Part shown: positions 1 to 57,815 of the stretch, piece by piece
Numbering within the stretch: position 1 is the stretch's first letter
How the letters are laid out: each line of letters begins with the position of its first letter
Source of the DNA: a virus
Taxonomy: Duplodnaviria > Caudoviricetes
Virus record (IMG/VR): IMGVR_UViG_3300022602_002355
Span: 1 to 57,815 of that record
Length of the DNA: 57,815 nt
Strand: one strand, 5' to 3'
The notes under the pieces: model-generated
What the model was told of the DNA's origin: nothing
Seen by the model: the letters and a program-made list of their open reading frames with translations, nothing else
The model's database searches: none
Translations under genes and position numbers: made by a program

Positions 1-345
1 CATCATCATTTCATCCGAGAAGGAGAGTACATCGATGCTAGTAGCGATCGTGTTAAACAGGTTGTTGATAGCTGGCGCGGTGTGCGTCCAACTTTACACT
101 ATAGCATTAGCCGGGAAGATGTATTAGTCGGCCACGATCCATTCACTTTACCCGAAATGCCCTTGCTGTTGGAACAGGGATACCGCAAGCAGAAATTACG
201 AGCACACAGCAACTTTATGTGGAACAAACCAGTTAACGAATGGGCCTACAAATTTTGGGAAAATTTTGATGTGATGGTGGAAGCCAAGGCGAAGAATCTT
301 GCCAGTTTTGAGCTATATGAGTTCTGGAAAAGCCTTGAAGAATAA
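1..345 (+). CDS. uvsE: UV-damage endonuclease UvsE/UvdE, C-terminal part (5' truncated by window)
   Basis: Frame is open from base 1: HHHFIREG...WRGVRPTLHYS...LRAHSNF...DVMVEAKAKNLA, matching the UvsE HH, HxS, AHS and MxEAKxK motifs. Confidence 0.85.
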   Translation, partial: HHHFIREGEYIDASSDRVKQVVDSWRGVRPTLHYSISREDVLVGHDPFTLPEMPLLLEQGYRKQKLRAHSNFMWNKPVNEWAYKFWENFDVMVEAKAKNLASFELYEFWKSLEE

Positions 346-413
346 GTGACTACGGTTCTTTAACTTAAAACATACACCCCTGCCAATACCTAATTGAGTA
401 GCACATCATCTAC

Positions 414-442
414 AAAAAGAAAAAGCACCCGAAGGTGCCTTT
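414..442 (-). terminator. Intrinsic terminator with cUUCGg loop
   Basis: Minus strand reads GCACC-TTCG-GGTGC-TTTTTCTTTTT, just after the stop of 461..748. Confidence 0.85.
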
Positions 443-460
443 ACTAAAACAAAATAAATC

Positions 461-748
461 TTACTTTGACTTTGGCTTGACTGCTGTCTTCTTTGCAACT
501 GGCTTCTTAACAGCTGGCTTCTTTGCAGGAGCCTTTGTTGCTTTTACTGCTTCTGCTTTAGGAGCACGTGGTTTACGTGGCTTCTTAGCAGGTGTTGAAA
601 GAGTTAATGGCTCTAAATCCAAAGCAACTGCAACAGGGTCTAATGCTGGAGCAGTAGTTACTACTTCTGCTGGTGCATCAACTTTATATGGTGCAACTGC
701 TACTTGTTCAGTAAAACCAAAAAACTTCTTGATATGTTTAATAACCAT
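461..748 (-). CDS. Small Lys/Ala/Pro-rich basic (histone H1-like tail) protein
   Basis: AAAAAGGA RBS, upstream TAAATA, PAKK/AVKK repeats, downstream terminator. Confidence 0.7.
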   Translation of the reverse strand: MVIKHIKKFFGFTEQVAVAPYKVDAPAEVVTTAPALDPVAVALDLEPLTLSTPAKKPRKPRAPKAEAVKATKAPAKKPAVKKPVAKKTAVKPKSK

Positions 749-779
749 GATTGTTCCTTTTTGAAAAGTTATATACGTA

Positions 780-799
780 TATTTAACTATTCATAAATA
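780..799. promoter_or_regulatory. Divergent T4-like late promoters
   Basis: TATTTA 780-785 (minus-strand TAAATA) and ATAAATA 793-799 (+). Confidence 0.65.
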
Positions 800-824
800 T
801 CAGTAACAGAAAAAGGATCAAGAT

Positions 825-924
825 GTCAAGTGCCAATTTACCTTTAAACCACATTGGCTGTACTACGCAAAGACAGGGAAAGTTCGTAGTTAGGGGTCCT
901 TGGATGCCCTGTTAACCACTTGAC
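825..924. ncRNA. Candidate structured RNA (multi-stem or pseudoknot) upstream of SOD
   Basis: GTCAAGTG/CACTTGAC, GCCAAT/ATTGGC, ACTACG/CGTAGT and ACAGGG/CCCTGT complementary pairs within 100 nt. Confidence 0.45.
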
Positions 925-937
925 GAGATATTTACCT

Positions 938-1492
938 ATGTATAATTTCATTAGAACAATAGCTGAAGGGCGTACTCCAAAAGAGCTTAAACAGGTACCA
1001 TTACCTGTAGCTCGAGATGGTTTGGGTCGTAGCCTGAGTAAACAAGCTGTAGATTACCATTATGGCAAATTATACAAGGCCTATGTTGACCGTTTTAACA
1101 GCGGAGAAGGGGATGCCGATTTTAATGAAGCAGGCGCCTTCTTACACAGCATATACTTCAGTCAGTTCCGTAGCCCAAAAGGATCTAACAATCCAGTCGG
1201 AAACATACTAGAATTCATCGAAAAACATCAAAAAAGTTGGGATAAATTCAAAGAAAAGTTTGAAAAAACTGCCATGGGTATACAGGGTAGCGGATGGGTT
1301 TATTTGTCTAAAAGCGGCGAAATTAAGACCATTACTAACCACGAAATTAAAAATGATATTGTATTGTTAATCGATTGGTGGGAACATGCCTGGGCATTAG
1401 ACTATCAAGCAGATAAAAAGAAGTATCTAGAAAATCAATGGAAAATTATTGATTGGGATGTAATCAATACTAGAATCAACGGTATAACATAA
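938..1492 (+). CDS. sod: Fe/Mn superoxide dismutase
   Basis: YHYGKLYKAYV, FLHSIYF, GIQGSGW, IDWWEHAW (His/His/Asp/His ligands); ATG 938 preferred over TTG 920. Confidence 0.9.
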   Translation: MYNFIRTIAEGRTPKELKQVPLPVARDGLGRSLSKQAVDYHYGKLYKAYVDRFNSGEGDADFNEAGAFLHSIYFSQFRSPKGSNNPVGNILEFIEKHQKSWDKFKEKFEKTAMGIQGSGWVYLSKSGEIKTITNHEIKNDIVLLIDWWEHAWALDYQADKKKYLENQWKIIDWDVINTRINGIT

Positions 1493-2105: not shown

Positions 2106-5100
2106 ATGGCTGGTCAAAGAACAATCAATATTGGTAATCAAAGCAATGACGGTACTGGTGACAGTATACGTGATGCGTTCAATAAAGTTAATGAAAACTT
2201 TAGCGACATTTATAACCTAGTAGGTGCAGGTAATGGATTCAGTTTCCTAAACCTAAACGAAGCTCCTAGTTATTTGCGAGCCAGTAATTCAGCTTCCGGA
2301 CAAGTAACAGTGTTAGGTATCAATGAGTTTGGTACCAAAATTCTTAACAAAACAATGGTTGCAGGTACTGGCATGCAGTTGGTATTGTATGATGATACTA
2401 TTATCATTAACAGTACATCTTCAAACTTGTCTTCTGAATCATCACCGGTCCTTGGTGGTAACTTAGATGGTCGAAATATCTATAACCTAGTTAACATGGA
2501 TAACAATGCCCCACACCATGACTACGATGCAGTTAGTCGCAAGTGGGTATATGATAACTTTGTAAACAGAGATGCAGAAACTGTTTATGATACAGGTGCC
2601 GGCAGTTCTTCGACAATATTTTACAGTTCTAGTACAATTAGACAAAATGTCAGTTTATTGACCACTGCTACAACTGGTACGCATTTGGTTAATAAATTCT
2701 ATGCTGATACTAAGATTGGCCTAGCAGGTACTTCAACTATTGACACATTCTCAGGATTACCAAATCCTGCATTAGGAACAATGACAGGGGCATTGTTACT
2801 ATTTAGAGATCCAGTAGATACTGATCATCCTAGTCAAGCCGCTACTAAAAATTATGTAGATAATAGTTCGTTTGTCAGCCAAGTTAACTTCTTTGTTAGC
2901 TTATATGGTAACGATAATAGAATCGATATTCCTGCTTACAAGAAAGGTCGTGCTTGGGCTTACGCATTTAAAACAATTAACCAAGCATGTTATGTTGCAG
3001 AACAATATTTGAACTCTACACAAGTTACACTAGGACCATACCAAAAAACAATTTCAATCTATAACGAAGAAGAATTTGTTACCTTAGCAAACTTGTCTAC
3101 TCCAAGTACAAGTGTACTTGATGCATCTCAATTTGGTATTACCCTAACTGTCGGGGTTCCAACAGCATTAGGGTCCGATGCTTTCCAAAATGGAAGTTTA
3201 TTCCCAGGTAACTATATTGTTGGTGCAAGATCAGGTGCCACCGCATTAATCGAAAGAATTACTACAGGTACAGAATCTTTAGGATCATTTGACTACTTTG
3301 AAAGATACGATGTTGTTCCAGTCGACTATGCTAGTTCATTTCCATCTGATCTAGAGTATCAAAGCGGTACCACAGCAACTACTATTACATATCGTTTTGT
3401 TACTCCTAACCTAATTAAGATTCCAAGTTTCTGGACAGACTATGGTTATACATTCAGAATAACAAGTGGTAGTCCAGATTATGCAACTGTTAGTCAAGGT
3501 ACTGTAGTTGAAACAGGATATTACACAGATGTAACAACAGGTTATGTGTATGATACCGTTACTGTTGATTTTACCCAAGGAACTTGGCCTACTAATACAA
3601 ATAATATTATCAACGGCAATTGGCATATCTACAGCGGATACGGCGGTACATTTGACTTAGGCGAAGAATTAATCTGGGGACAATATCAACCTAGAGAACA
3701 AATTACAATCAACATCGAATCAGGTGAGCACGAAGATCAATATCCTATTCGTGTTCCAAATAACGTTTCCCTAAAAGGTGACGAGTTTAGACGTAGTGTT
3801 GTTAAGCCTGCCAAATTATATGGATCACAAATTTCTAGTATTAGTGATTCTATTTTTGCAAATACAAAATTCTATCGAGATACTCAAGTTGACGGAATTA
3901 TTCCCGTACAACTTAACACATCTACAAACTATGCACAGCTATTAACTGATCCTATTAGCAATGCAACAACGGCTACTTATGCAGTTCCGTCTGCTGTTGT
4001 AAATTCAACACAAACAAACTCAACTGTATTCTCTGTTTACGAAGTAGGTACAAACGCAGAAGTTTATCCTCCTGCATCCTGGGTTGGGCAAGTATTCCAA
4101 GGCGGTGGAGGTCAAGGTGAAATTACCTCAGTTATTGGAAATACCTTTGCAGTTAACCTAGCTCAAAATGCAGAGTATGTTAATGAATTAACTGTTGCCT
4201 CAGGTACACAATTATTTGCAAATGGACATTACGGTACAAACAACTGGTATGCAGTTTATGAACCAATCAATTACGGATTCCATTATTTGCGAGATAGTTC
4301 ACGTTATCTTGACGTATTAACTACTACAACTAATAACGGTGGTTTCTTAAACGCGGCCGCTGTACTTGCAGAAAACAAAAAGTTTATTCAAACAGAAGTT
4401 ACAGATTGGTTTGCAACTAACTTTAGCTATTCTACAGCTACCCAAGAATTATGTTACAGAGATGCAGGTACTATTGTTGATGGCCTAGTTAGCGATTTAA
4501 CAACAGGCGGATGGTGGAGAACTGTCAACAACGGTGATAGTATTGTTAACTATGTAACAAGCCTAACTACAGCCTGTGTTGATACCATTTATCAAATTGG
4601 TGTAATCGCACAGTATGTTTTACAAAATACCACGTCGACAATTTATAATTCTCCAAGAGACTTTAGTTCGTCAATTACATACAACGAAAAGAGTTATCAG
4701 GTTAATGTATCAACTGCCACTGCGTTAGCTGTTGAAGTTGGTTGGACAATTATTGATCCTACTATTCCTGCAGGTTTCTCGACTATTACTGCTGTAAACA
4801 CATTTACCGGAGTATTAACTACTGACGTGGAAATGATTATCACTCCACGATTAACATTAACAAGTACAGCAACTTTTGTTGCACAAACTCTTGATGGTGC
4901 ATATACTTCTGAATCAGGTTCATATCTTGCGTTAGCAGACTTAGTACAAGCATGTGCTAGAATTGTTGCTAACGATCCTGCATTTAATCCTCCATTGTAT
5001 AACGATCAAATGGATGTGTTCTTAATGAACGATTCTACTATGATACGTTATTTGAGCTGTCAAGGCCATGGCGGTTTCATGAAGGTACTTGACCCTGCTG

Positions 5101-8100
5101 GTCAGATACTTGCAAAATCTCCATACACACAAACTGCATCTAGTTTCTCTAAGAGTTACAACCGTCATGTATTCAGCGGTGGTATGTTTGTTGACGGCTT
5201 TACCGGTAACGTTACTGCTACCCCTGATCCAAGTCAAGGAAGCTATGCACAATTAGATAGTAATAACCTTCCAACTAAGATTGCAGTTTATGGATTAGGA
5301 CGTCCTGATGTTTATAACACATCAACTTATGTAAGACCACAAACTCCGTGTTTCTTTGTAAACAACGGTATTACATACGATGTAGACTTTATTAGTGAAT
5401 TCGATCCTGTAGCTAACTACGGTGTGTTAAATCTTAATCCAGATGCGGCTGGCGGTGTTAAATCATTTACTTTCTCAGCTGGCAGTATTTCAGGATTTGC
5501 GGCAAATACAACAACTACACTAACATTTAGTAGTCCACAGGCACCAGGCGGTTTGGCCGCATACGGTACTGTAACCACTAACGGCACCGGTGTTGTTACC
5601 AATGTAACAGTTACATTCCCTGGCGTAGGATACGAAAGTGTTCCTACATTTACTATCGGTGGTGCTTTCCTAGGATTTAGCTACAATGCAGGAACTGGTG
5701 CTATTTCTGGATACAACATTATCCTTCCAGGTACTGGATATAAAGTAGGAACTCCAGTTAACTTTAATACTCCACAAGGCGGTACAGCGGCCGCGGCAAC
5801 TGTGTCTAGTGTGAACTCAAGTGGTGGTATTACTGGACTAACATTTAGCACTCATGGTACATTATACAATTCATCAAATGCTCCTGCAACATATACATTT
5901 GGTACTATAAACTATAACAATGTAACAATCCTAACCGAAGTAGGTTATTTAGGAACACTACCGACGGAGATTACTTTAGTTACTGCGGGTAACAGAAGTA
6001 TGTTGGCAAATGACTTTACGCAGTTAAATGACTTAGGTTACGGTATTTTTGCTACCAACGGTGGTTTTATTGAAAACGTTTCTATGTTCTCATACTACTG
6101 CCATACTTCTTACTATGCACTAAATGGTGCGCAATTAAGAACTATTACTGGTTCAAGTGCATACGGTGATTGGGGCTTGGTTGCTGAAGGTAGTAACCCA
6201 CAAGAAGTTCCTATTTCAGTTATCAATAAAAACCCAATGGTGGTTGAAGGTACTATTGTTAACACAGGAAATTATATTACCTTAGCAGGTGCTTCGACAA
6301 TTTATGTAAATTGCCCAGCAGGTTATATACCTCAGCTACAAAGCTATGTAGATATTTTACAAGATGGTTATGTTTATACCTATACTGTAAAGAGTGCCAC
6401 TTCTGTTGCAGATGGCAGTTATTCTAATTTATATTCTTTAGCAATTTCATATGGTGCGGCAGGAACAGGTCTTGCAGACGTTGCACCATTAGACGGTCAA
6501 GGAGTAACACTACGTATTGGTTACGATCAAGAATTAATTGGTCTACAATCAAGCGTTATCAGTCGCCCAAGCACTGCGATGATATTCAACGAAAATCCAA
6601 ATCAAGTTTATAAGATTTTATCTTATACTGATGAAGGTAATGATACTGTTATCGCAGAAGGTAATGTTGCTTATGATTACATCGTGCTTAACCCTTATAC
6701 AAACATAGCAGGTTTAGGTCAACAAGGTATTGGTAACATTAGTTGGGCAGACAAAAGGTATGTTGGTCCAAGTAATACACTACCAGTCGGTATCATTAAC
6801 TCGGGTACTGGTTATGCAAGCCTTGGCACATATCATGTTACGTTCCCAACTCCGCCGACTATTACTGCACAATCAAATGGCGTTAACGGAACTAATACTG
6901 CGCCAGTGAGTGTAATTAATATTACCGGTGCTAGTGGAACAATTCACCCTGGTATGATTTTCACAACAACTTCGTTGACAGCAGTTATTCCTGCTAATAC
7001 GTATGTTTCTTGGGCAAACTCTACAGGCAGTAATGTTACTACTGTTCGTTTAAACAATAACGTTTATGGATTGGCAAATAGTGATCATATCGGATTCGTT
7101 GGTGTAGCCGCGACAGGTACTGCTCACGTTAGTGCAATCAATACTATTGATTACATCCAATTAACAAATCACGGTGCAGGTTATCCTAACAATGTATTAT
7201 ACCAAACTGGTACTATTGATTCCCCAGGCGGTGGTGGTACACAAGCAACTGTAATCGGTAGTGTACAAGGTATCATCGGTTCAGACAGTATTAAGATTGC
7301 TCCATTAGGATCATTAGATCAAGCTCGTATTACAACCGGCTTGTCTGCATCAACACCATACTATTACTATTTTGGTTACCTAGGTAAGACCTACAGAATT
7401 ACCGGTTATACTCCTCCTTCAATCACAGGAGATGCAAGTTTTGGTGAAATTCAATTTGTTCTTGATTCAGACGGTGTAAGTGGATTACAAGACGAAATTA
7501 TTCTTCCAAATGCTGTTATCGGTATCGGCGGCAGTAACGCTGGTTTACAAGCAGGTATTGGAGCAGGCCAGACAGGTAACATCACTGTTAAGATTTCTAC
7601 ATTACGTGCTACGGCACATGACATGGTAGACGTTGGTACTGGCGGTTATGCTACAAGTAAGATTCCAAATGACTTATATGGTCCTCCATTGCAAGGTCCA
7701 TTCCAAAGTCAAGAAGTTAACATGATCGGTAAGGGTGTTGTTTATTATGTAACAACCGACCAAGATGGTAACTTCCGTGTTGGTGAATATTTTAACGTTG
7801 ACCAAGGTCACGGCACTGTTACAATTAGTGCTCCAATTGGTTTAAGCAACGTTGACAGTATTACATTCAAACGCGGTGATACAACTGTTAATAGATTTAG
7901 TACAGATGGTACTATGGCCGCAAACGCTACTACCAAAGTACCAGTCGAACAAGCGATTGTAACTTTTGTTAACAAACGTTTAGGTCTAGATCAAACAGGT
8001 GCGGTTTATCAACAGTCATTGTTAGGACCTGGCTTCTTAGATCGTACAGGTCTGTTGCCAATGACTGGTAACATCAACATGAATAGCGAAGCTATTATTA

Positions 8101-17592: not shown

Positions 17593-19037
<1,445 letters not shown>

Positions 19038-23100: not shown

Positions 23101-23346
23101 ATGGGATTCAAATATTCATATGATGTAACTAAGGCGGCTCGAGAAATTAATGCGGCCGCGTACGATGCTACGTCTAGACTTAATGACGGATTTATTCAAT
23201 GGGGTGCTAAACAAGATTTGTACATCCTAAAATGGATTGTCGAAGATGCACTACGGCGCTGTTCAAGTTTTGGTGATACCGAAGCAGAATGGCTTAAACA
23301 AAAAGAGCAGGAAAAACTTATAAGGATACTTAAAAGTGACGTGTAA
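23101..23346 (+). CDS. Hypothetical protein
   Basis: ORF directly after the promoter. Confidence 0.65.
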   Translation: MGFKYSYDVTKAAREINAAAYDATSRLNDGFIQWGAKQDLYILKWIVEDALRRCSSFGDTEAEWLKQKEQEKLIRILKSDV

Positions 23347-26908: not shown

Positions 26909-27475
26909 ATGCACGATATAGTAGACATTATTAAGAATATACAAACATTATCCGTCAATGATAGTGCGTTTAAAATCCTAAAAGACTTTGAACGTGTATT
27001 AGACGAATTAGATATCTATGTATTTGCCAACTGGGAAGATGGTGAATTACTTGCTGGTCCAGAAGTAACTCGTTATGCAGTTGCTTGCAAATTCCTATGG
27101 CCACGAGATAAGATGCCAGATCCAGAAGGTGGAGAGCGTTTACTAGACTACGGATGCAAAGTAGTTTATAGAAAAGAATCATTAATGGTTCCACGTAAAG
27201 TATACAAACCAAGCGATTTTCGCCCTGGTACAAAAAAGGGTAAGATTGATGCACACCCAGTTTGGGTAGTAGATATCACTATACCTAAGAAACTAATGCA
27301 AGATATATTCCAAGGTTATGATGATAAAGAAAATCGTAAACTTGCTGATATGATGCGTATAGAAGAATTAACACAAATGAATGCTGGGGCGGCCGCAGGT
27401 GATGCTATAGATACTCAGCCAACTGAACCAACTGACATGGGAGGCACAGATGTACAAGCACCAGCACCGCAATAA
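26909..27475 (+). CDS. Hypothetical late protein
   Basis: ATG 26909 after late promoter; DFERVLD..D.Y...NW, MPDP.GG motifs. Confidence 0.7.
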   Translation: MHDIVDIIKNIQTLSVNDSAFKILKDFERVLDELDIYVFANWEDGELLAGPEVTRYAVACKFLWPRDKMPDPEGGERLLDYGCKVVYRKESLMVPRKVYKPSDFRPGTKKGKIDAHPVWVVDITIPKKLMQDIFQGYDDKENRKLADMMRIEELTQMNAGAAAGDAIDTQPTEPTDMGGTDVQAPAPQ

Positions 27476-41980: not shown

Positions 41981-42357
41981 GAGCAAAAGAGTTTATTTTT
42001 AAAGAAGCAAAGGATTTTAAACCTAATGAGTTTAGACACGATGCTATGGCAGGATTACCTGGTGCTCATGCTTGGCCAGAATTAGATAACAGCTCTGGGT
42101 ATCTTGCATATCGTTTCGGAGTCGCACTTGCCGGACAGCCAGATCAAAAGATGGATGTAGTTGGACCAACTGGATTGAAGATGGTTACTATTGCGTACAC
42201 TCCTGCAGAACAAGCAATTTTAGATGCGGCCGCTGGATTAGTAGGAACACCTAAAGTACGATTAACACCAGATAGTAGTACAGAATTAGCAGACACAAAT
42301 AAACAAAGCCCTGTTGCCAATTGGAATAAACATGCTAACGGGAAAATGAAAAAATGA
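41977..42357 (+). CDS. Hypothetical late protein (MRAKEF)
   Basis: ATGA coupling; N-terminal motif shared with cluster. Confidence 0.7.
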   Translation: MRAKEFIFKEAKDFKPNEFRHDAMAGLPGAHAWPELDNSSGYLAYRFGVALAGQPDQKMDVVGPTGLKMVTIAYTPAEQAILDAAAGLVGTPKVRLTPDSSTELADTNKQSPVANWNKHANGKMKK

Positions 42358-43601: not shown

Positions 43602-43613
43602 ATCACAAAAGCA

Positions 43614-43663: not shown

Positions 43664-43933
43664 ATGAGTAAAGCATTTGGCGCACCAGAGCAGGCAAAAA
43701 TCAAACAAATCGTTTCAGAAGGCATGACAGTTATGCAAGAGATTCAAGATTTGACAGATGGTCTCAACGAGACTATTAAAGCAGTAGCAGAAGAACTAGA
43801 AGTAAAACCCAGCGTTATTAAAAAAGCAATTAAAGTATCAATGAAAGATCAATGGGATCAAGTTTGGAGAGAATTTGACGATCTCGAAACTATTGTCGAT
43901 ATTTCTGGACACTCTCATCGCCGTGAAGAATAA
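43664..43933 (+). CDS. Small dsDNA-binding protein (T4 DsbA/GapR-like)
   Basis: Coiled coil then AEELEVKPSVIKKAIK; size and position near the polymerase. Confidence 0.55.
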   Translation: MSKAFGAPEQAKIKQIVSEGMTVMQEIQDLTDGLNETIKAVAEELEVKPSVIKKAIKVSMKDQWDQVWREFDDLETIVDISGHSHRREE

Positions 43934-44813: not shown

Positions 44814-47483
44814 ATGAGTTATGTCGATGCCATCTGGAATCGCGACACTGATACTGTTCACGTTGTCGAGCGAGATCCAAAAAAGGGTAGAATCTACACA
44901 GATTACCCAGCCCGTTATGTGTTCTATCATCCAGACCACAAGGGAAAATACAAATCAATCTTCGGCGAAAGCCTATCAAAAGTTTCTTGTAAGAATTGGA
45001 AAGAATTTATCAAGGAACAAAAAATCCATTCAGGACAAAAATTATACGAAAGCGATATTAATGCGGTCTTCCGTATTTTAGAAGAAAACTATCTTGGTAA
45101 AGAACCTCCAAAACTAAATGTAGCATTTTGGGATATTGAGGTGGACTTCGATCCAGAACGTGGTTATGCGTCTCCAGAAGATGCGTTCATGCCAATTACT
45201 GCGATTGCTGTTCACCTACAATGGTTAGATACTCTTGTTTGTCTTGCTGTTCCTCCAAAGACACTAACAATGGAGCAAGCACAAGAGCAAATTAAAGAAT
45301 TTCCTAATACTATCTTGTTTGATAATGAAGCAGATATGTTAGAAACATTCTTAACACTAATAGAAGATGCTGATGTACTAAGCGGTTGGAACAGCGAAGG
45401 CTTTGATATGCCGTACACAGTTAACCGTATTATTAAAACACTGAGCAAAGAAGACACACGCAGACTTTGTTTGTGGAATCAATTTCCTAAGAAGCGTGAA
45501 TACGAAAAGTTTGGTAAAGATGCAGTTACTTATGACCTAATCGGTCGTGTACACGTTGATAGTTTAGAATTGTATCGTAAGTATACATATGAAGAACGTC
45601 ATAGTTACAGACTTGATGCTATTGCCGAATATGAATTAGGTGAAAAGAAAACACAATACGAAGGTACACTTGATCAACTATATAACAATGACTTTAAAAA
45701 GTTCATTGAATATAACAGACAAGATACTGCACTTCTAGATAAGTTAGATAAAAAACTCAAATTCATTGATTTGGCAAATACTGTTGCACACGAAAATACA
45801 GTATTAATTCAAACTACAATGGGTGCTGTTGCTGTTACTGAACAAGCAATTATCAACGAGGCACATCATAGAGGTTTAATTGTTCCTAGTCGTCCTAAGC
45901 GAGATGAAAATCTTGATACACAGGCCGCAGGTGCTTATGTTGCATATCCTAAAAAAGGATTACATGACTATATAGGATCAATGGATATTAACTCGCTGTA
46001 TCCATCTGTAATTCGTGCATTAAACATGGGTCCAGAAACAATTATTGGGCAGTTGCGACAAGATTATACCAAAGAAGAAATTGAAAATAAAATGGCCAAG
46101 GGCGCAAGTTTTGCGGCCGCGTGGGAAGGTAAGTTTGGCAGTAACGAATACGAATTTGTTATGAAGCGAGATATTGCTCACGACATTATTATCGATTGGG
46201 AAGATGGTCGAACTGATGTATTAAGCGGTGCTCAGATCTACGAATTAATCTTTGAAAGCAACCAACCTTGGATGCTTAGTGCTAATGGCACAATTTTCAC
46301 ACACGAACACGAAGGAGTTATTCCCGGATTGTTAAAGCGTTGGTATGCCGAACGTAAAGAAATGCAGGCAAAACTAAAAGAAGCAATCAAAGCGGAGAAT
46401 AAAATTGAAGAAGAATACTGGGACAAACGACAACTCGTTAAGAAGATTAACCTTAATAGCCTGTATGGTGCTATTCTTAACGCTGGGTGCCGCTTTTTTG
46501 ATAATCGTATCGGGCAGTCAACCACCCTTACAGGCAGAGGAATTGCCAGACATATGGCATCTAAAATTAATGAAGTCATCACAGGCGAATACGACCACCT
46601 CGGAAAAAGTATCATTTACGGAGATACTGACTCAGCCTATTTTAGCGCCTATCCATCCTTGAAGAAAGATATTGAAAAGGGTGCTATTCCATGGAATAAA
46701 GATACTGCTGTTCAACTATATGATACTATTTCCGATGAAGTTAATAGTACCTTCCCACAATTCATGGTAGATGCACATCATTGTCCAAAGTCACGTGGTG
46801 AAGTTATTAAGGCTGGTCGTGAAATTGTTGCTATTAAAGGATTGTTCATTACTAAGAAACGTTATGCTGTATTGTATTATGATAAGGAAGGCAAGCGACA
46901 AGACGTTGATGGTAAGCCAGGTAAGATCAAGGCCATGGGATTGGATTTGAAACGCAGTGATACTCCTGAATTTATGCAAAAGTTCTTAGAAGAAGTTTTG
47001 ACTAAAGTTCTTAACGGTAGTCAAGAACAAGAAATTCTAGATATGATTAGCGAATTCCGAACTGAATTCAAGGCCCGCCCTGGTTGGGAAAAAGGTAGTC
47101 CAAAACGTGCAAACAATATTACTGAATATCAGGCTAAAGAAGCCAAGTTTGGTAAAGCTAATATGCCAGGACATGTACGTGCAAGCATTAATTGGAATAC
47201 ATTGAAGCGTATGAACGGTGACAAATATAGTCAACAGATTGTAGATGGTATGAAAGTTATTGTTTGTAAGGTAAAAGATAATCCACTTGGATATACTTCA
47301 GTAGCATATCCAGTAGATGAAATGCGTTTACCTAAATGGTTCCAAGAATTACCGTTTAATCACGCAGAGATGGAAACAACTATTATTAACAACAAGCTGG
47401 AAAATCTTATTGGAGTGTTAGAGTGGGATTTAGAATCTACTACACAAAACAATAATTACAATTCTTTATTCACATTTGATTAA
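44814..47483 (+). CDS. gp43: Family B DNA polymerase
   Basis: Exonuclease DIE, GWN..FD, YN..D; polymerase DINSLYPS, K...NSLYG, YGDTDS, KKRY. Confidence 0.96.
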   Translation: MSYVDAIWNRDTDTVHVVERDPKKGRIYTDYPARYVFYHPDHKGKYKSIFGESLSKVSCKNWKEFIKEQKIHSGQKLYESDINAVFRILEENYLGKEPPKLNVAFWDIEVDFDPERGYASPEDAFMPITAIAVHLQWLDTLVCLAVPPKTLTMEQAQEQIKEFPNTILFDNEADMLETFLTLIEDADVLSGWNSEGFDMPYTVNRIIKTLSKEDTRRLCLWNQFPKKREYEKFGKDAVTYDLIGRVHVDSLELYRKYTYEERHSYRLDAIAEYELGEKKTQYEGTLDQLYNNDFKKFIEYNRQDTALLDKLDKKLKFIDLANTVAHENTVLIQTTMGAVAVTEQAIINEAHHRGLIVPSRPKRDENLDTQAAGAYVAYPKKGLHDYIGSMDINSLYPSVIRALNMGPETIIGQLRQDYTKEEIENKMAKGASFAAAWEGKFGSNEYEFVMKRDIAHDIIIDWEDGRTDVLSGAQIYELIFESNQPWMLSANGTIFTHEHEGVIPGLLKRWYAERKEMQAKLKEAIKAENKIEEEYWDKRQLVKKINLNSLYGAILNAGCRFFDNRIGQSTTLTGRGIARHMASKINEVITGEYDHLGKSIIYGDTDSAYFSAYPSLKKDIEKGAIPWNKDTAVQLYDTISDEVNSTFPQFMVDAHHCPKSRGEVIKAGREIVAIKGLFITKKRYAVLYYDKEGKRQDVDGKPGKIKAMGLDLKRSDTPEFMQKFLEEVLTKVLNGSQEQEILDMISEFRTEFKARPGWEKGSPKRANNITEYQAKEAKFGKANMPGHVRASINWNTLKRMNGDKYSQQIVDGMKVIVCKVKDNPLGYTSVAYPVDEMRLPKWFQELPFNHAEMETTIINNKLENLIGVLEWDLESTTQNNNYNSLFTFD

Positions 47484-51814: not shown

Positions 51815-52865
51815 TCTAGAAGCTGTCGAGACTAGGTACACTGGCGAATGGAAAAGCCATGTACCTAATCTCTTGCGAAAGGCAGGACACGATGTTCAAA
51901 TTATATCTGGCCCTACTGATATTCCTTCAGCCACTACTCCTGGTGCTTTTCTTAATTTTGGCGGTACCAATATATATAAGTCAGCACAGGTTGAGCAGAT
52001 GGGTAGGTTGTTTTGCGACGGAGCCGTTCATCCCGGTGATCACTTTATCTTTACTGATGCTTGGCACCCTGGTATCATAAATTTAAAGTACATGAGTGAA
52101 TTGTTAAAAATTCCAGTAACTATTCACGCATTATGGCACGCCGGCAGTTATGATCCAGCAGATTTTTTAGGTCGCTTAATTGGTGATACACCGTGGGTTA
52201 GGAACGCTGAAAAGAGTTTCTATCACGCAATTAATCACAATTACTTTGCTACAGAATTTCATATTGAAATGTTCTGTAAAAATCTGTTAGGATATGAAAG
52301 TTCTGACATTGTTCGAAAATTTGCTAAAAACAAAATTGTACGAACAGGTTGGCCAATGGAGTATATGGATAGTACGTTAACAATGTACAAGAACATGCCC
52401 AAGCGTGATCTTATTTTGTTTCCGCATCGTATTGCTCCAGAAAAACAAGTTGAAATATTTAGAGACTTAAAAGAGCAACTACCCCAGTATGAATTTGTAA
52501 TTTGCCAGGATCAACATCTAACAAAGAATGAATATCATAATTTGTTAGGTGAAGCTAAGATAGTATTCAGTGCTAACTTACAAGAAACTTTAGGCATTAG
52601 TTGTTATGAAGGCGCATTGGTAGATGCTATACCGATGGTGCCGGATCGTTTGTCATACAGCGAAATGTATTATGAAGGATTTAAGTATCCTAGTGAATGG
52701 ACTGAAAATTGGGATAGTTATTTACAAAACGTCGAAAAATTATGTCATCATATCCTTGTAACAATGACACACTATGAGAAACGTATTCCGCAGGTAAGAA
52801 AACAAGCACTAGATTTAACTGAATATTTTTTTAGTGCAGATAAGTTATTGGAAAATATTAAATGA
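51795..52865 (+). CDS. GT-B glycosyltransferase
   Basis: WHAGSYD, FPHR..PEK, QETLGIS..EG, P.VPDRLSY.EM. Confidence 0.8.
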   Translation: MTVFLIDLEAVETRYTGEWKSHVPNLLRKAGHDVQIISGPTDIPSATTPGAFLNFGGTNIYKSAQVEQMGRLFCDGAVHPGDHFIFTDAWHPGIINLKYMSELLKIPVTIHALWHAGSYDPADFLGRLIGDTPWVRNAEKSFYHAINHNYFATEFHIEMFCKNLLGYESSDIVRKFAKNKIVRTGWPMEYMDSTLTMYKNMPKRDLILFPHRIAPEKQVEIFRDLKEQLPQYEFVICQDQHLTKNEYHNLLGEAKIVFSANLQETLGISCYEGALVDAIPMVPDRLSYSEMYYEGFKYPSEWTENWDSYLQNVEKLCHHILVTMTHYEKRIPQVRKQALDLTEYFFSADKLLENIK

Positions 52866-53653
52866 TTGGAATTATTGGATTAGGTTTTGTAGGAGGTGCT
52901 ATTAAGGCATCAATTGATTGGGATCCTTCTACGGTATTAGTCGACGCAGATCCGTCACGCGGTACACATCCGTTTGAAGATCTAGCAAGAACAGAAGGTG
53001 TGTTTATTTGTGTCCCAACTCCGCAGGATGACGATGGAACATGTGACACAAGTATCCTAGAAGATATTCTAGCAAAATTAAAAGCACTAGATTATCATGG
53101 TGTTATTATTAGTAAATGCACAGCACCGCCCGATGTGTACACTCGCTTAAATGATCAATATATTAATCTAGTTCATGCTCCAGAATTTCTTACTGCGGCT
53201 AATGCTGTAAGAGATTATGCCAATGGTACCTTTGCCATTATTGGCGGCCGTGTTAAAGCCTATAGAGATCTAGCAGAAAAGATTATTAGAGAAACACAGC
53301 CTTCATTAGAATATGTACAACATTGTTCTATCGCCGAAGCAAGTCTAGCAAAATATACGATCAATTGTTTTATGAGTACAAAAGTAATATTCATGAACGA
53401 ACTAGCTAATTTAGCTAAACTGTCTAACTGCGATTATAATATAGTTGCTGGTTTGGTTAAAATGGATCCACGCATAGGCAAAAGCCACATGCAGGTACCA
53501 GGACCAGACGGATTGTACGGATTTGGCGGAGCATGCTTTCCAAAAGATACTAGTGCATTGCTCAAATATGCAGAAAGCGTTGGAGCTCAATTAAATGTAT
53601 TAGATGCGGCTGTAAAGAAAAATACACTGCTACGTTTGACAGAACCTAAATAA
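52862..53653 (+). CDS. ugd: UDP-glucose/GDP-mannose 6-dehydrogenase family (short form)
   Basis: GLGFVG, CVPTP, PEFL, KY..N, GFGGACFPKD. Confidence 0.88.
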   Translation: MIGIIGLGFVGGAIKASIDWDPSTVLVDADPSRGTHPFEDLARTEGVFICVPTPQDDDGTCDTSILEDILAKLKALDYHGVIISKCTAPPDVYTRLNDQYINLVHAPEFLTAANAVRDYANGTFAIIGGRVKAYRDLAEKIIRETQPSLEYVQHCSIAEASLAKYTINCFMSTKVIFMNELANLAKLSNCDYNIVAGLVKMDPRIGKSHMQVPGPDGLYGFGGACFPKDTSALLKYAESVGAQLNVLDAAVKKNTLLRLTEPK

Positions 53654-53664
53654 TCAAGTAAAAT
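53636..53664 (+). promoter_or_regulatory. Overlapping sigma70 and late promoters for folE
   Basis: TTGACA-17-TAAAAT with CTAAATA at 53646-53652. Confidence 0.6.
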
Positions 53665-53704
53665 AACTTAAAGACATCCACGTCATTAACTCGGAGAATA
53701 ATAA

Positions 53705-54469
53705 TTGACAACATTTACAACAGAAGATTTACAGAATGCACTCAATGGTGCAGAACAAATGAGCGATAAAGGCTACGAAGAAGCATACCTAGGCGACCAC
53801 TTGCGTTTTAAAATGAAACGTGAAGGTAAACGTTTTTGGGCAGGCGACAACATCAGCGAATATGTTACCGAAGAATTCAAAGCTAAACTAATCGACGAAG
53901 CAACAGAAGCATTTGAAACAGTTCTTGATCGATTGCTTATTGATCAAGAAAACGATCCTAACAGTAAAGGCACAGCACGTAGGCTTGCCAAGATGTACTT
54001 TAACGAAATAATGGCAGGTAGATATGATCCAGCACCAGACGCAACAGCATTTCCAAACGACAGCGCAGACCGTTATGAAGGTATGTTGGTTGTTCGTAGT
54101 GAGCTTCGCAGTATGTGTAGCCATCATCACCAACCCGTGGTTGGCGTTGCTTATATTGGCATTATTGCCGCCGAGAAACTTATCGGCTTATCAAAATACA
54201 CAAGAATTGCACAGTGGTGTGCCCGACGTGGAACTCTCCAGGAGGAACTTTGTAATGATATTGCTAGGGAAATCCAAAAAGCCACAGGCGCCACAGACTT
54301 AGGCGTATACATTCAAATGACACATGGGTGTTGTGAGAACAGAGGAATTATGGCTAAGAGTAGTTTAACACAGACTACAGTATTGCGTGGCGCATTTAAA
54401 GATGATATGGGAACAAAGAAAGAATTCTTTGACAATATTAAGATGCAACAAGAGTATGCTTCTAAATGA
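53705..54469 (+). CDS. folE: GTP cyclohydrolase I
   Basis: SMCSHH, GLSKY.R, LQE, HGC..NRG. Confidence 0.93.
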   Translation: MTTFTTEDLQNALNGAEQMSDKGYEEAYLGDHLRFKMKREGKRFWAGDNISEYVTEEFKAKLIDEATEAFETVLDRLLIDQENDPNSKGTARRLAKMYFNEIMAGRYDPAPDATAFPNDSADRYEGMLVVRSELRSMCSHHHQPVVGVAYIGIIAAEKLIGLSKYTRIAQWCARRGTLQEELCNDIAREIQKATGATDLGVYIQMTHGCCENRGIMAKSSLTQTTVLRGAFKDDMGTKKEFFDNIKMQQEYASK

Positions 54470-54693
54470 TAAGTGATTTAATTCTTTTATTTGTTGTACT
54501 AGGGCTCGGTATGCTTATTGGACACAATTGGCATTGGGAAAGTGAGCGTACTTACAAGGCACGACTATTGAAAGAATTAGATAGTGAACTTAAAGACGAA
54601 CTAACTGTAGCAAATAATCTAAATGATAGTCTTAAACAAGACCTGGCTGAATTAAAATCTAAACTACGCAAACTTCAATTAGAAAGGAAATAA
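54466..54693 (+). CDS. Membrane-anchored coiled-coil protein
   Basis: N-terminal hydrophobic helix and heptad repeats. Confidence 0.6.
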   Translation: MISDLILLFVVLGLGMLIGHNWHWESERTYKARLLKELDSELKDELTVANNLNDSLKQDLAELKSKLRKLQLERK

Positions 54694-54694
54694 A

Positions 54695-54889
54695 ATGGCA
54701 AATAAATTAGGTAAATTAGCAAAAGTAAATGAAAACATCACTCTTAATCGTTACGATAACGGTTGGATGGTAGAAGTCAGTGGTCGCAATAAGAAGGACG
54801 ACTGGGCATCTGTTAAAACTCTTTGTAACACAGAAGAAGAACTTATTGCTGTGATTAAAGAGTGGAATTTAATGGATTTGGAAAACTAA
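54695..54889 (+). CDS. Hypothetical protein
   Basis: AAGGA RBS; YDNGWMVEV. Confidence 0.65.
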   Translation: MANKLGKLAKVNENITLNRYDNGWMVEVSGRNKKDDWASVKTLCNTEEELIAVIKEWNLMDLEN

Positions 54890-54898
54890 GGAAATATC

Positions 54899-55396
54899 AT
54901 GGCAACTTGGACCGTTAGTACATATTATAAAAAGTCTTGTCAAGAAGTTGAATCATATCATCAACGAGAAGGCGAGGGCAAAGTCACAGTCACTAACGGT
55001 TTCCGTTATGGCGAATGGACTGTAGAAACTTCAGACGATAAACCGCCAGAGTTTGAATTTACATTTGTACCTGGCGGTGACGGAAAGAAAGACAGCATTG
55101 ATATGCTAGACTGCGAAGTCAACAACATCGAAAGCGTTGACCTTGTTGAAATGTTTGACGGCGGTTGCTGGTACGATATTGACATTGAAGGATTAGAAGA
55201 AGACGAGGAAGAAGAGATCCGTGAATTCCTCGAAGAAAACACTCCTTACGATTTAGAAGAAGAAGGTTGGATGCAAGGCGATACCCATTGGTGGATCTGG
55301 GGTCCAATCGAAATTAAAGATGAAGATGGCGAAACTGTACGTATCATTTGTGCAGACGCCGACGGTAATGTTGTTGATTTTAAGGATGAAGAATGA
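54899..55396 (+). CDS. Highly acidic hypothetical protein
   Basis: Very Asp/Glu-rich, with Trp. Confidence 0.7.
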   Translation: MATWTVSTYYKKSCQEVESYHQREGEGKVTVTNGFRYGEWTVETSDDKPPEFEFTFVPGGDGKKDSIDMLDCEVNNIESVDLVEMFDGGCWYDIDIEGLEEDEEEEIREFLEENTPYDLEEEGWMQGDTHWWIWGPIEIKDEDGETVRIICADADGNVVDFKDEE

Positions 55397-55686
55397 GCTG
55401 GCTTAAAAGAAAAATCCGCAATTGGTTAAACAACGATGATAGCGAATTAGTTGAATTATCAAAGATTCGTAGTAACACCCTCGGTATTGGTAGAGCTACA
55501 GAGTTAGACAATAATAATAAACTGTCTTTTTCTATGCATAGAGCAAGAGGCGGAACTGTTGTAGAAACTTCTAATTATGATAGAATCAAAGACCGACATA
55601 ATACTACGTTATATATTATTACTAACGAACAAGACCTTGGACATGAAATTGCCAAGATTTTTACCATGGAATCACTGCGTGGCTAA
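55393..55686 (+). CDS. Hypothetical protein
   Basis: ATGA coupling; A.GG.VVE..YD motif. Confidence 0.65.
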   Translation: MSWLKRKIRNWLNNDDSELVELSKIRSNTLGIGRATELDNNNKLSFSMHRARGGTVVETSNYDRIKDRHNTTLYIITNEQDLGHEIAKIFTMESLRG

Positions 55687-55885
55687 ACATAGAAAGTTAC
55701 CGTATCCAACACAAGTTCCGGGATTAGACCAACAGCATCAATGGTATTTAGAATATAATGTAGACGCAATTAATTTGGGTCGTATGTGTGAAGAATTTCC
55801 GGGGTTGCGAAAATCCTGGGAACAGTTTAAAATGATGTATCAACTTTGTAAGAGTAAAGATGAAACTAACAAACAAAATTCTTAA
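55679..55885 (+). CDS. Hypothetical protein
   Basis: Likely GTG start at 55679; MCEEFPGL..SWEQFK. Confidence 0.5.
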   Translation: MAKHRKLPYPTQVPGLDQQHQWYLEYNVDAINLGRMCEEFPGLRKSWEQFKMMYQLCKSKDETNKQNS

Positions 55886-56354
55886 TTGGTTGGAAGCACA
55901 CGGGCGTAAGCGTGTTATTCTTGATCGCGAAAGCAATGAACCATATCTAGAACGCTACTACGTTTTTCTAAAAGATCGTAAATGGTTTCCATTTAACGTG
56001 TTTGTACATAAGTTTCTTAAAAGTGATCCAGACGAGGTACATGATCATCCATGGCCATATGCCACACTTATTCTTAAAGGTGGCTATTATGAATACGTTC
56101 CTCGATTTAATTCACAAGGTTGGAAAATCGGAGAGACACGCTACTGGCGTGGTCCTGGACATTTCCGTATTTGTGGTCCAAAGAGTTTTCATCGTATTGA
56201 ATTACATCCAGATGTAACTGCATGGACTTGTTTTATCCCCGGACCACAAATCCGTGAATGGGGTTTTTTAGTAGGCCATTTTGAAAATCAAAAATGGATA
56301 CACAATGAAGATTTCTTAAAGGCTCGACGTGAAAAAGCAAATAATAACATATAG
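55860..56354 (+). CDS. Cupin-fold protein
   Basis: HDHPW....ILKGGY.E ... HRIEL metal-binding pattern. Confidence 0.75.
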   Translation: MKLTNKILNWLEAHGRKRVILDRESNEPYLERYYVFLKDRKWFPFNVFVHKFLKSDPDEVHDHPWPYATLILKGGYYEYVPRFNSQGWKIGETRYWRGPGHFRICGPKSFHRIELHPDVTAWTCFIPGPQIREWGFLVGHFENQKWIHNEDFLKARREKANNNI

Positions 56355-56826
56355 TGATTATGAAAATTTAATTAGCAACATTTGTAGAGAAATACATCAT
56401 AGCGGATGGACTCCAGACTATGTTGTAGGACTTACTCGCGGCGGGCTAATTCCTGCCGTTTTCCTTAGCCACTGGCTAGATGTTAAAATGAATAGTTTAG
56501 ACATTAGCCTTCGAGATGGCGGTGATTGCGTTAGTAACGCAGGTATGGCCGCAGATGCATTTGACGGAAAGAATATTCTTATTGTTGATGACATTAACGA
56601 TACAGGCGCTACATTTAATTGGTTGATGCGTGATTGGATGGATATGGCTCATCCAGAGAGCGAAGTATGGGAAAAGGTCTGGAACGGTAATGTTAAATTT
56701 GCTGTAGTTGTAGATAACTTATCAAGTAAGTCTAAGGTTAGTATGGATTTTGTTGGAATGGAAATAAACAAAGCAGACGAAGATGTCTGGATTGAATTCC
56801 CTTATGAGGAGTGGTGGAAAAAATGA
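56329..56826 (+). CDS. Type I (purine-type) phosphoribosyltransferase
   Basis: VVGLTRGGL, ILIVDDINDTGAT PRPP loop, WIEFPYE as in Gpt-like enzymes. Confidence 0.88.
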   Translation: MKKQIITYSDYENLISNICREIHHSGWTPDYVVGLTRGGLIPAVFLSHWLDVKMNSLDISLRDGGDCVSNAGMAADAFDGKNILIVDDINDTGATFNWLMRDWMDMAHPESEVWEKVWNGNVKFAVVVDNLSSKSKVSMDFVGMEINKADEDVWIEFPYEEWWKK

Positions 56827-57011
56827 CACAAGTTAAAGAAGGTAGTAAATGGGCCGGGGCAGATGGAAAAAGATTTCATGTCATTCATGTAATTGAAGCC
56901 AAAGATGGACACACATGGGTACATTATGAGCAAGACGGCGTGAAAGAATCACGCGAGTTTAGTTGCTATATCGAAAGTTTTTTAGAAAGATTTAGAGCGT
57001 TACCAGAATGA
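56823..57011 (+). CDS. Hypothetical protein
   Basis: ATGA-coupled start; WVHY, SC..ESFL.RF. Confidence 0.6.
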   Translation: MTQVKEGSKWAGADGKRFHVIHVIEAKDGHTWVHYEQDGVKESREFSCYIESFLERFRALPE

Positions 57012-57601
57012 TGATATCTAAATTTAACTATATTACAGCAAAGGCGCAGAATAAACTTTGCCGTTCCCTTATATATACGTTATCTAAATTAGAAAACATA
57101 GTAACATCTCCAGTTACATGGTTATTTCGATTAAAGGACGATTCAACTAAGATTATGACCGCCTATGAAATTCAACAAATAAAAACTGTTGATTTTAAAT
57201 GGTCAACTAGTGCATCGGGTGCAACTGGAACAACATCAAGACCGGCCGGACAGCGTGTTGGTTATACTGTCGGTAATGGATTTACACCACCGAGAGATTC
57301 TATCACATTTAATAGTGCAGATCGTAAACCTGTTCTGATTATCACTGGTGATGGTGACGTAGAATGGCATGGAAAACCTTCGGAGGCCGCAAAAGCATTA
57401 GAACGATCTTTTCAATTTACAGTAGAAGATATGAAAGGTGTTACTAAGGCCGCTAGACGCAGATATTATTTAAAGGCCTGTCAAAATATTCTAAATAAAG
57501 CAGAGAGTATGGAACATGCCGAATTTATTGACTTTTTAAAGAAACAAGTGTACAATAGAGAACGCAAAGTTATTATAGACAGTTTACAAGGAACAAATTA
57601 A
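57008..57601 (+). CDS. Hypothetical protein
   Basis: Overlap-coupled at both ends. Confidence 0.55.
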   Translation: MMISKFNYITAKAQNKLCRSLIYTLSKLENIVTSPVTWLFRLKDDSTKIMTAYEIQQIKTVDFKWSTSASGATGTTSRPAGQRVGYTVGNGFTPPRDSITFNSADRKPVLIITGDGDVEWHGKPSEAAKALERSFQFTVEDMKGVTKAARRRYYLKACQNILNKAESMEHAEFIDFLKKQVYNRERKVIIDSLQGTN

Positions 57602-57815
57602 TGTCAAAAATTAAAGTGGCGGAGCTTTTTTACTCTATACAGGGAGAGGGTAGATATATGGGAGTGCCCAGTGTGTTCCTTAGAACATTTGGTTGCAATT
57701 TTACTTGTAAGGGCTTTGGTATGCCAAAAGGCGAACTAAGCGATGAGGCAGACACTATTGCACAAGTAGCATTCCATTACGACAAGTACGAACAATTACC
57801 ATTGGTTAGTACAGG
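57601..57815 (+). CDS. queE: QueE-like radical SAM enzyme (3' truncated by window)
   Basis: My translation: MSKIKVAELFYSIQGEGRYMGVPSVFLRTFGCNFTCKGF... Confidence 0.88.
   Translation, partial: MSKIKVAELFYSIQGEGRYMGVPSVFLRTFGCNFTCKGFGMPKGELSDEADTIAQVAFHYDKYEQLPLVST

What the first reader, a model, noticed from the sequence alone, without database searches (positions are those of the whole stretch)
1..57815. Apparent GCWGC avoidance forces Ala-Ala into GCG/GCC codons and creates an excess of NotI sites
Seen: isolated Ala codons are mostly GCA/GCT, yet every Ala-Ala pair I checked (more than 30) begins GCG or GCC (for example caagccgct 2834, gatgcggct 5442, attgcggca 19624). GCGGCCGC occurs at 4353, 5787, 18381, 23152, 27389, 42226 and 46113, far more than expected in AT-rich DNA. 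I noticed no GCAGC/GCTGC, but my scan was not exhaustive. Inference: strong selection against a host GCWGC restriction-modification site (TseI/ApeKI-type) that the deazaguanine modification does not protect. This could help identify the host.
Basis: partly seen in the sequence, partly recalled or inferred. Interest (0 to 1): 0.7.

Follow-up and report, generated by a model that had tools for sequence, protein, structure and literature searches.

The report
Phage genome purged of GCWGC sites
A fragment of an uncultured giant phage has removed every copy of the short DNA word GCWGC by synonymous recoding, which is a clear but ordinary example of a virus dodging a host restriction enzyme.

Summary
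GCWGC occurs 0 times in 57,815 bases, against 66-86 expected from Markov models and 78-81 from synonymous-codon shuffles, where the lowest of 500 shuffles was 62. It is the most depleted of all 4-6-mers (z -16.4). All 88 Ala-Ala pairs start with GCG or GCC, against 15% for other Ala codons. All 7 NotI sites are in-frame Ala-Ala-Ala written GCG GCC GCN, so the NotI excess is a by-product.

The window is about 16% of a roughly 350-kb uncultured jumbo phage. Among 80 relatives the depletion is patchy, and a PolB tree needs at least 5 changes of state. Relatives have purged other palindromes instead: AGCT, GTWAC, TGCA and TGCGCA. AAGCTT, ACGCGT, AGCGCT and GTGCAC are low in all of them.

The best reading is avoidance of a host type II restriction site, either TseI/ApeKI-like GCWGC or BbvI-like GCAGC.

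The deazaguanine premise is not supported. Only FolE is present; no DpdA/TGT, QueC or QueD was found in the window, and no TGT in five large relatives.

The host remains unidentified. Site avoidance is a known kind of anti-restriction strategy, so interest is moderate to low.

The parts
1..57815 (.). Whole record (about 16% of a jumbo phage genome) without a single GCAGC or GCTGC on either strand
   Evidence: 0 observed against 66-86 (Markov) or 78-81 (codon shuffle) expected; virus record, linear, CheckV completeness 16%.
4353..4360 (+). NotI site, in-frame Ala-Ala-Ala (GCG GCC GCT) in the 2968-aa ORF
5787..5794 (+). NotI site, in-frame Ala-Ala-Ala(-Ala) in the 2968-aa ORF
18381..18388 (+). 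NotI site, in-frame Ala-Ala-Ala in tail-fibre ORF 17592-19037
23152..23159 (+). NotI site, in-frame Ala-Ala-Ala in ORF 23101-23346
27389..27396 (+). NotI site, in-frame Ala-Ala-Ala in ORF 26894-27475
42226..42233 (+). NotI site, in-frame Ala-Ala-Ala in ORF 41977-42357
46113..46120 (+). NotI site, in-frame Ala-Ala-Ala in the family-B DNA polymerase gene
44814..47483 (+). Family-B DNA polymerase, used as marker to find and tree the relatives
   Evidence: PF00136, PF03104
53705..54469 (+). GTP cyclohydrolase I (FolE), the only gene in the window that could belong to a 7-deazaguanine pathway
   Evidence: PF01227, E 1.6e-37

Best explanation
The window is a piece of a virulent, uncultured jumbo myophage of about 350 kb. 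Its lineage has been selected to lose every GCWGC because its hosts, or a large share of them, carry a type II restriction endonuclease that cuts unmethylated GCWGC. That enzyme could be a palindromic TseI/ApeKI-like enzyme or a BbvI-like type IIS enzyme reading GCAGC on either strand.

Every occurrence can be removed synonymously. Ala-Ala is written GCS GCN instead of GCW GCN. Codons ending in GC are not placed before AGC or TGC. CAG and CTG are not placed between a codon ending in G and one starting with C. So the protein sequences are untouched.

GCSGC, CGGCCG and NotI sites pile up as side effects.

Shown here: the depletion, its codon mechanics, its by-products and its patchy distribution among relatives. 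Inferred: that the selective agent is a host restriction enzyme.
For: 1. Total absence against four Markov nulls and two codon-aware nulls.
2. All three codon phases are empty (0 against 67.1, 8.8 and 3.1 expected). Both orientations are empty (GCAGC 0/48, GCTGC 0/38). So the target is a double-stranded DNA word, not a codon pair.
3. No DNA methyltransferase family (PF00145, PF01555, PF02086) was found in six frames of the window. No C5 or N4/N6 methyltransferase was found in five relatives' contigs of 105-230 kb. The group therefore has no visible self-methylation alternative.
4. The trait is labile.
   - Over the 80 PolB-linked loci, 13 are avoiders (O/E <= 0.25), 28 are non-avoiders (O/E >= 0.75) and 40 are unclassified. 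The PolB tree needs at least 5 changes.
   - Whole contigs form a gradient: 0/86, 1/22, 10/86, 12/79, 18/80, 96/229, 70/80, 402/371.
5. The share of GCG/GCC at the first Ala of Ala-Ala runs 1.00, 1.00, 0.92, 0.88, 0.81, 0.72, 0.40, 0.32, against 0.16-0.25 for other Ala codons. Selection has evidently been applied and relaxed at different times.
6. Relatives show the same kind of purge for other short palindromes.
   - Lineage-specific: AGCT 3/172 and 3/182; GTWAC 0/108; TGCGCA 0/29; TGCA 191/702.
   - Low in every contig: AAGCTT, ACGCGT, AGCGCT and GTGCAC.
   - This is what a varied host restriction-modification repertoire would produce.
7. Published background.
   - Site elimination is an established strategy, seen almost only for orthodox type II sites and mostly in non-temperate phages (PMC6286503, abstract and section 13).
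   - Phage K has lost GATC (PMC6532042, passage).
   - GCWGC is cut by TseI and ApeKI (PMC4926085, passage).
   - GCWGC methylation exists in freshwater and marine Chloroflexi bins and in Microcystis panniformis (PMC6329791, PMC8919816, PMC4730716, passages).
Against: - The host is unknown, so no cognate enzyme has been shown.
- Only about 16% of the genome is in hand. The other 84% could hold sites, a methyltransferase or a nuclease.
- 85% of the expected sites are Ala-Ala sites, so the evidence from the other two phases rests on about 12 expected sites.
- Even 'non-avoiding' relatives have somewhat more GCS at Ala-Ala (0.32-0.40 against about 0.2). This could be a mild codon-pair preference rather than a fossil of past selection.
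- Expected values for relatives come from an order-2 Markov model, not from codon shuffles.
Confidence: 0.8

Rival explanations
1. Methylation-dependent restriction. Phage progeny made in hosts with a solitary GCWGC methyltransferase would carry methylated GCWGC. They would then be cut in the next host by a BisI-like type IIM enzyme. Losing the sites removes that risk.
For: - BisI-family enzymes cut m5C-modified GCNGC, and some prefer GCWGC (PMC4926085, passages).
- GCWGC is listed among type IIM sites (PMC6286503, section 13).
- The GCWGC methyltransferase M.AbaBS3I of lake Chloroflexi has no restriction partner in that paper's table (PMC6329791, passages).
Against: BisI-type enzymes as described act on GCNGC, yet GCSGC is 2.7-fold enriched here (107 against 33-40). 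This reading also needs two kinds of host in sequence. Nothing in the window speaks for it specifically.
Confidence: 0.07
2. The phage itself encodes a GCWGC-specific nuclease that destroys host DNA. It is immune because its own genome has no sites.
For: - Absence is absolute in the window.
- No protecting methyltransferase was found.
- 84% of the genome is unseen, and many ORFs have no family.
Against: - Sister contigs keep 10-18 sites per 57-59 kb, and another keeps 96 in 166 kb. That would be lethal with a self-encoded nuclease but is expected under graded host pressure.
- At least eight different palindromes are depleted in different lineages, which would need as many phage nucleases.
- No nuclease family was found in the 40 of 69 ORFs scanned with Pfam.
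Confidence: 0.04
3. A translational codon-pair bias: GCA or GCT before another Ala codon is disfavoured for decoding reasons, with no DNA-level selection.
For: 85% of the expected sites are Ala-Ala. Relatives without depletion still show mildly raised GCS at Ala-Ala.
Against: - The two other codon phases are also empty (0 against 11.9 expected).
- Relatives with 83-86% identical polymerases use GCW GCN freely: 299 of 441 Ala-Ala pairs in G001.
- A bias would not give 88 of 88.
Confidence: 0.02
4. Mutational decay: GCWGC is methylated at cytosine and lost through m5C deamination.
For: GCWGC cytosine methylation is common in nature (PMC6329791, PMC4730716, passages).
Against: - 79 window positions are homologous to GCWGC in relatives. 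There the window differs at all five positions of the word (30, 30, 19, 33 and 36 differences), with all kinds of bases and not only C to T or G to A.
- The favoured replacement at Ala-Ala is W to S at the middle base, which deamination cannot produce.
Confidence: 0.02

Closest known systems
Restriction-site avoidance in virulent dsDNA phages (survey by Rusinov et al. 2018, PMC6286503; Staphylococcus phage K without GATC, PMC6532042)
   Same: A short type II palindrome is completely eliminated by synonymous change, in a non-temperate-looking phage with no visible methyltransferase.
   Different: - The site is the degenerate 5-mer GCWGC.
- The phage is an uncultured jumbo phage with no known host.
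- Close relatives differ in which palindrome they have purged, and they show graded decay.
TseI and ApeKI (type IIP, G^CWGC), with BbvI-type type IIS GCAGC enzymes as the alternative
   Same: Their recognition sequence is exactly the missing word (PMC3643589 abstract as shown in the search listing; PMC4926085 passage). BbvI's GCAGC specificity is recalled from memory, not taken from a call.
   Different: No such enzyme was found or searched for in a host, because the host is unknown. The sequence cannot tell the palindromic reading from the asymmetric one, since both orientations are equally depleted.
7-deazaguanine DNA modification systems of phages (DpdA with the preQ0 pathway: FolE, QueD, QueE, QueC)
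   Same: FolE is present.
   Different: DpdA/TGT, QueC and QueD are absent from the window. TGT is absent from five large relatives. The window cannot be filed under this system.

Membership tests
Anti-restriction by recognition-site elimination | Observed/expected far below 1 under composition-aware and codon-aware nulls | tested here: met
   0 against 66-86 and 78-81 with a minimum of 62 in 500 shuffles. It is the most depleted of all 4-6-mers.
Anti-restriction by recognition-site elimination | Depletion acts on the DNA word: all codon phases and both orientations | tested here: met
   Codon phases: 0 observed against 67.1, 8.8 and 3.1 expected. Orientations: GCAGC 0/48 and GCTGC 0/38.
Anti-restriction by recognition-site elimination | The word is the recognition site of known restriction enzymes | tested here: met
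   TseI and ApeKI cut GCWGC (PMC4926085 passage; PMC3643589 abstract in the listing).
Anti-restriction by recognition-site elimination | The host carries a restriction enzyme of that specificity | not testable with these tools
   Host unknown. The only lead is one 5.2-kb contig binned in a Crocinitomicaceae MAG. The search for RE_HindIII in 201 genomes of that family was empty and had no positive control.
Anti-restriction by recognition-site elimination | The phage lacks its own protecting methyltransferase | tested here: inconclusive
   None of PF00145, PF01555 or PF02086 was found in the window. No PF00145 or PF01555 was found in five relatives. All of these records are fragments (16-65% complete).
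7-deazaguanine DNA modification (DpdA system) | DpdA (a TGT-family DNA transglycosylase) | tested here: not met
   No PF01702 match at E <= 1 in the window or at E <= 0.1 in five relatives. The control rang in 14 of 14 genomes.
7-deazaguanine DNA modification (DpdA system) | preQ0 synthesis genes QueC and QueD | tested here: not met
   No PF06508 or PF01242 in the window. There is one weak QueC-like match (23.2 bits) in one of five relatives.
7-deazaguanine DNA modification (DpdA system) | FolE (GTP cyclohydrolase I) | tested here: met
   Window 53705-54466: PF01227 at E 1.6e-37. The NCBIfam FolE models match below their curated cut-offs.
7-deazaguanine DNA modification (DpdA system) | QueE (radical SAM) | tested here: inconclusive
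   No radical-SAM family appeared among the 40 of 69 ORFs scanned with Pfam. No six-frame search was made.

The most novel reading that the evidence does not exclude
The purge is not a defence against a host enzyme. It is self-immunity to a phage-encoded GCWGC-specific nuclease, carried in the unseen 84% of the genome, that shreds the host chromosome. This would be discrimination of self from non-self by absence of the site, with no DNA modification at all.
Probability: 0.04. Interest if true: 0.8.

Novelty: new member of a known kind. Interest (0 to 1): 0.35.

Why it matters
Site avoidance itself is textbook anti-restriction.

What may be useful is the pattern across this abundant, uncultured jumbo-phage group.
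- Four palindromes are low in all eight contigs examined.
- GCWGC, AGCT, GTWAC, TGCA and TGCGCA are purged lineage by lineage.
- The Ala-Ala first codon keeps a graded record of past GCWGC selection.

Such a fingerprint could be matched to methylomes of metagenome-assembled genomes from the same waters, to assign hosts at strain level. It would also let one follow how fast restriction pressure turns over in nature.

A practical point: DNA of this lineage should resist TseI and ApeKI but be cut unusually often by NotI and EagI-type enzymes.

Tried and rejected
**Identifying the phage and its host**
- Near-identity search of 12 kb of the window against cultured phages found no match.
- Host by tRNA: none present.
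- Host by genome contigs: one 5.2-kb contig (PolB 75% identical) in a Crocinitomicaceae MAG. That is too little to build on.
- Shine-Dalgarno-like motifs sit upstream of 27 of 69 ORFs, against a 9% background. As far as I recall, this fits Bacteroidota poorly.
- RE_HindIII in 201 genomes of that family: no match, and no control genome matched either, so the result is uninformative.
- Host by homologues of the phage's SOD: the 120 best hits listed are all unnamed metagenome proteins of the same phage group.
- Literature on jumbo phages with SOD and deformylase gave no match to this group.
- A search for GTWAC methylation found it only as an unassigned marine motif.

**Tool and method failures**
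- MAFFT on 81 polymerase genes timed out. It was replaced by a protein-guided codon alignment and FastTree. That tree is a quick one, rooted at midpoint. Recombination among these phages may make it differ from the history of the rest of the genome.

**Readings rejected**
- Sequencing or assembly artefact. The recoding is synonymous and codon-exact, and it recurs in independent records.
- Deamination.
- Codon-pair bias.

**Limits**
- My ORF set is a crude longest-ORF call. I dropped three minus-strand ORFs (1733-2020, 22734-23111, 43559-43708) and added 22687-23055 (+).
- Supplementary files of the papers could not be opened. They may list hosts or methylated motifs that bear on the host question.
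Full report
**1.

The window has 38.7% G+C and no GCAGC or GCTGC on either strand.

Expected GCWGC counts:
- Markov models of order 0 to 3 predict 48.9, 74.4, 85.9 and 65.7.
- Permuting synonymous codons within each of 69 crude ORFs gives 78.1 +/- 4.8, with a minimum of 62 in 500 shuffles.
- Drawing codons from a genome-wide pool gives 81.2 +/- 4.9, with a minimum of 64.
- Against 300 codon shuffles of every strand-merged 4-, 5- and 6-mer, this word is the most depleted (z -16.4). AGCT comes next (111 against 232.5, z -10.2). AAGCTT has 1 against 18.8.

**2. How the sites are avoided.**

All 88 Ala codons followed by Ala are GCG (45) or GCC (43). Of the 1363 other Ala codons, 665 are GCA, 488 GCT, 140 GCC and 70 GCG.

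Of the expected sites, 67.1 lie in the Ala-Ala phase, 8.8 in nGC|WGC and 3.1 in nnG|CWG|Cnn. All three phases are empty. Both orientations are empty too.

Of the 107 GCSGC, 88 are in-frame Ala-Ala. All seven NotI sites are in-frame Ala-Ala-Ala written GCG GCC GCN, and 7 of the 9 Ala-Ala-Ala tripeptides are written that way.

**3. What the window is.**

It is an entire IMG/VR virus record, linear, rated 16% complete. No tRNA gene was found.

Genes recognised:

| Gene |
|---|
| family-B DNA polymerase |
| clamp-loader-like AAA protein |
| PhoH |
| DnaJ |
| peptide deformylase |
| ClpA/B-like ATPase |
| Fe/Mn superoxide dismutase |
| GH19 lysin |
| S8 protease |
| FolE |
| phosphoribosyltransferase |
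| collagen-like tail fibres |
| 2968-aa ORF with no Pfam family |

The polymerase is at most 50.5% identical to that of any cultured phage. The best matches are jumbo phages: Sinorhizobium phage Phosso, the 121Q/PBECO4 group of E. coli, and Vibrio phage 2.275.O. The Clp-like ATPase also matches jumbo phages, including Phosso, Atu_ph07, 2.275.O and PA5oct.

Genome size is about 350 kb on three lines of evidence. A relative's 229,675-base contig is rated 65% complete. The window's 57,815 bases are rated 16% complete. An SOD homologue lies on a 354,680-base contig.

**4. Relatives.**

IMG/VR holds at least 591 confirmed polymerase relatives. The best 80 were fetched, at 83-91% amino-acid identity.

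- Over these 913 kb, GCWGC is 878 against 1265 expected. Individual loci range from 0/19 to 43/30.
- On a quick polymerase tree, the window's clade (L001, L004, L002) is depleted throughout. Several other clades are too, while others are not.
- With 13 avoiders, 28 non-avoiders and 40 unclassified tips, parsimony needs at least five changes.

Whole contigs give a gradient, and the share of GCG/GCC at the first Ala of Ala-Ala follows the same order:

| Contig | GCWGC observed/expected | GCS share at first Ala of Ala-Ala |
|---|---|---|
| window | 0/86 | 1.00 |
| G006 | 1/22 | 1.00 |
| G008 | 10/86 | 0.92 |
| G007 | 12/79 | 0.88 |
| G009 | 18/80 | 0.81 |
| G002 | 96/229 | 0.72 |
| G010 | 70/80 | 0.40 |
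| G001 | 402/371 | 0.32 |

Other Ala codons have a GCS share of 0.16-0.25 in every contig. I read this as selection switched on and off in different lineages, with slow decay after it is relaxed. A mild codon-pair preference cannot be excluded for the lowest values.

**5. Other purged palindromes.**

- Low in every contig: AAGCTT (6/75 in G001, 7/59 in G002, 1/17 in the window), ACGCGT (0/21, 0/23), AGCGCT (0/28, 1/26) and GTGCAC (8/43, 1/18).
- Lineage-specific: AGCT 3/172 and 3/182 in G007 and G008; GTWAC 0/108 in G009; TGCGCA 0/29 and TGCA 191/702 in G002.

This mosaic is what a host population with a varied, fast-changing type II repertoire would imprint.

**6. Mechanism.**

Site elimination is a long-known anti-restriction strategy. 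It is seen almost only for orthodox type II sites and mostly in non-temperate phages. Near-complete elimination occurs in about a tenth of viral genomes (PMC6286503, abstract and section 13). Phage K without GATC is the classic case (PMC6532042, passage).

GCWGC is the site of TseI and ApeKI (PMC4926085, passage; PMC3643589, abstract in the listing). A BbvI-like type IIS enzyme reading GCAGC (recalled from memory) would leave the same footprint. The equal loss of both orientations argues only against a strand-biased solution of the kind used against type III enzymes.

No DNA methyltransferase was seen in the window or in five large relatives.

Rivals:
- **Deamination** is not supported. At 79 window positions homologous to relatives' sites, the differences fall on all five positions and involve all bases.
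- **A phage-encoded nuclease** is hard to square with sisters that keep 10-96 sites.
- **Methyl-dependent restriction** stays possible but is not favoured, because GCSGC is enriched.

**7. Deazaguanine.**

Only FolE is present. TGT/DpdA, QueC and QueD are absent from six-frame searches of the window. TGT is absent from 771 kb of relatives, and one relative has a weak QueC-like match. The premise that a deazaguanine modification exists and fails to protect GCWGC is therefore unsupported, though 84% of the genome is unseen.

**8. Host.**

The host is unresolved; the searches made are listed under Tried and rejected. GCWGC methylation is reported in lake and marine Chloroflexi bins and in Microcystis panniformis (PMC6329791, PMC8919816, PMC4730716, passages). 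These are examples only, not host candidates backed by any link to this phage.

**9. Verdict.**

This is a real, very clean and fully explained compositional feature. It is a new instance of a known strategy. The comparative pattern has some value as a possible host-matching fingerprint.

Noticed in passing
window 1-57815, and relatives G001, G002, G006-G010: AAGCTT is nearly absent (1 against 17-19 expected in the window). It is low in every relative, as are ACGCGT, AGCGCT and GTGCAC. AGCT is halved in the window (111 against 191-232) and almost gone in G007 and G008 (3/172, 3/182).
   Followed up: partly
G009 (L091-L093); G002 (L110-L118): Other total purges occur in sister lineages: GTWAC 0/108 in G009, and TGCGCA 0/29 with TGCA 191/702 in G002. 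GTWAC is listed as a methylated motif without a known methyltransferase in a marine survey (PMC8919816, passage).
   Followed up: partly
window 14326-19037: Two tail-fibre ORFs are built of Gly-Ala-Thr collagen-like repeats, with GAT and ATG tripeptides 87 times each in the 1088-aa protein. This explains the strong excess of GGTGCTAC, AGCACC, GTAGCA and CACCTG.
   Followed up: yes
window 2106-11012: A 2968-aa ORF has no Pfam family at E <= 0.001. It lies upstream of the tail-fibre genes.
   Followed up: no
window 21516-22034: A 172-aa ORF matches only a short part of the DNA polymerase III alpha NTPase domain (PF07733) and the phrog_11127 'DNA polymerase' family. It is a stand-alone fragment-sized gene.
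   Followed up: no
window 920-1492; 31880-35513: The window carries an unusual set of host-like genes for a phage: Fe/Mn superoxide dismutase, full-length DnaJ, peptide deformylase and a ClpA/B-like double AAA ATPase. The SOD has 3801 homologues at E <= 1e-10, and the best 120 are all from metagenomes at 73-100% identity.
   Followed up: partly
window 52862-56826: FolE sits among a truncated-looking UDP-glucose dehydrogenase-like ORF (263 aa, matching only the middle of the roughly 413-position NCBIfam model), a cupin-type 'cysteine dioxygenase' PHROG and a phosphoribosyltransferase. The role of this cluster is unknown, and it is not a recognisable preQ0 pathway.
   Followed up: partly
IMG/VR records behind L002, L004, L036, L044, L079 and the window: Six fragments of this phage group are all 56-59 kb long, although the polymerase lies at different places in them. 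They are rated 15-17% complete. I could not tell whether this is chance or a recurrent assembly break.
   Followed up: no
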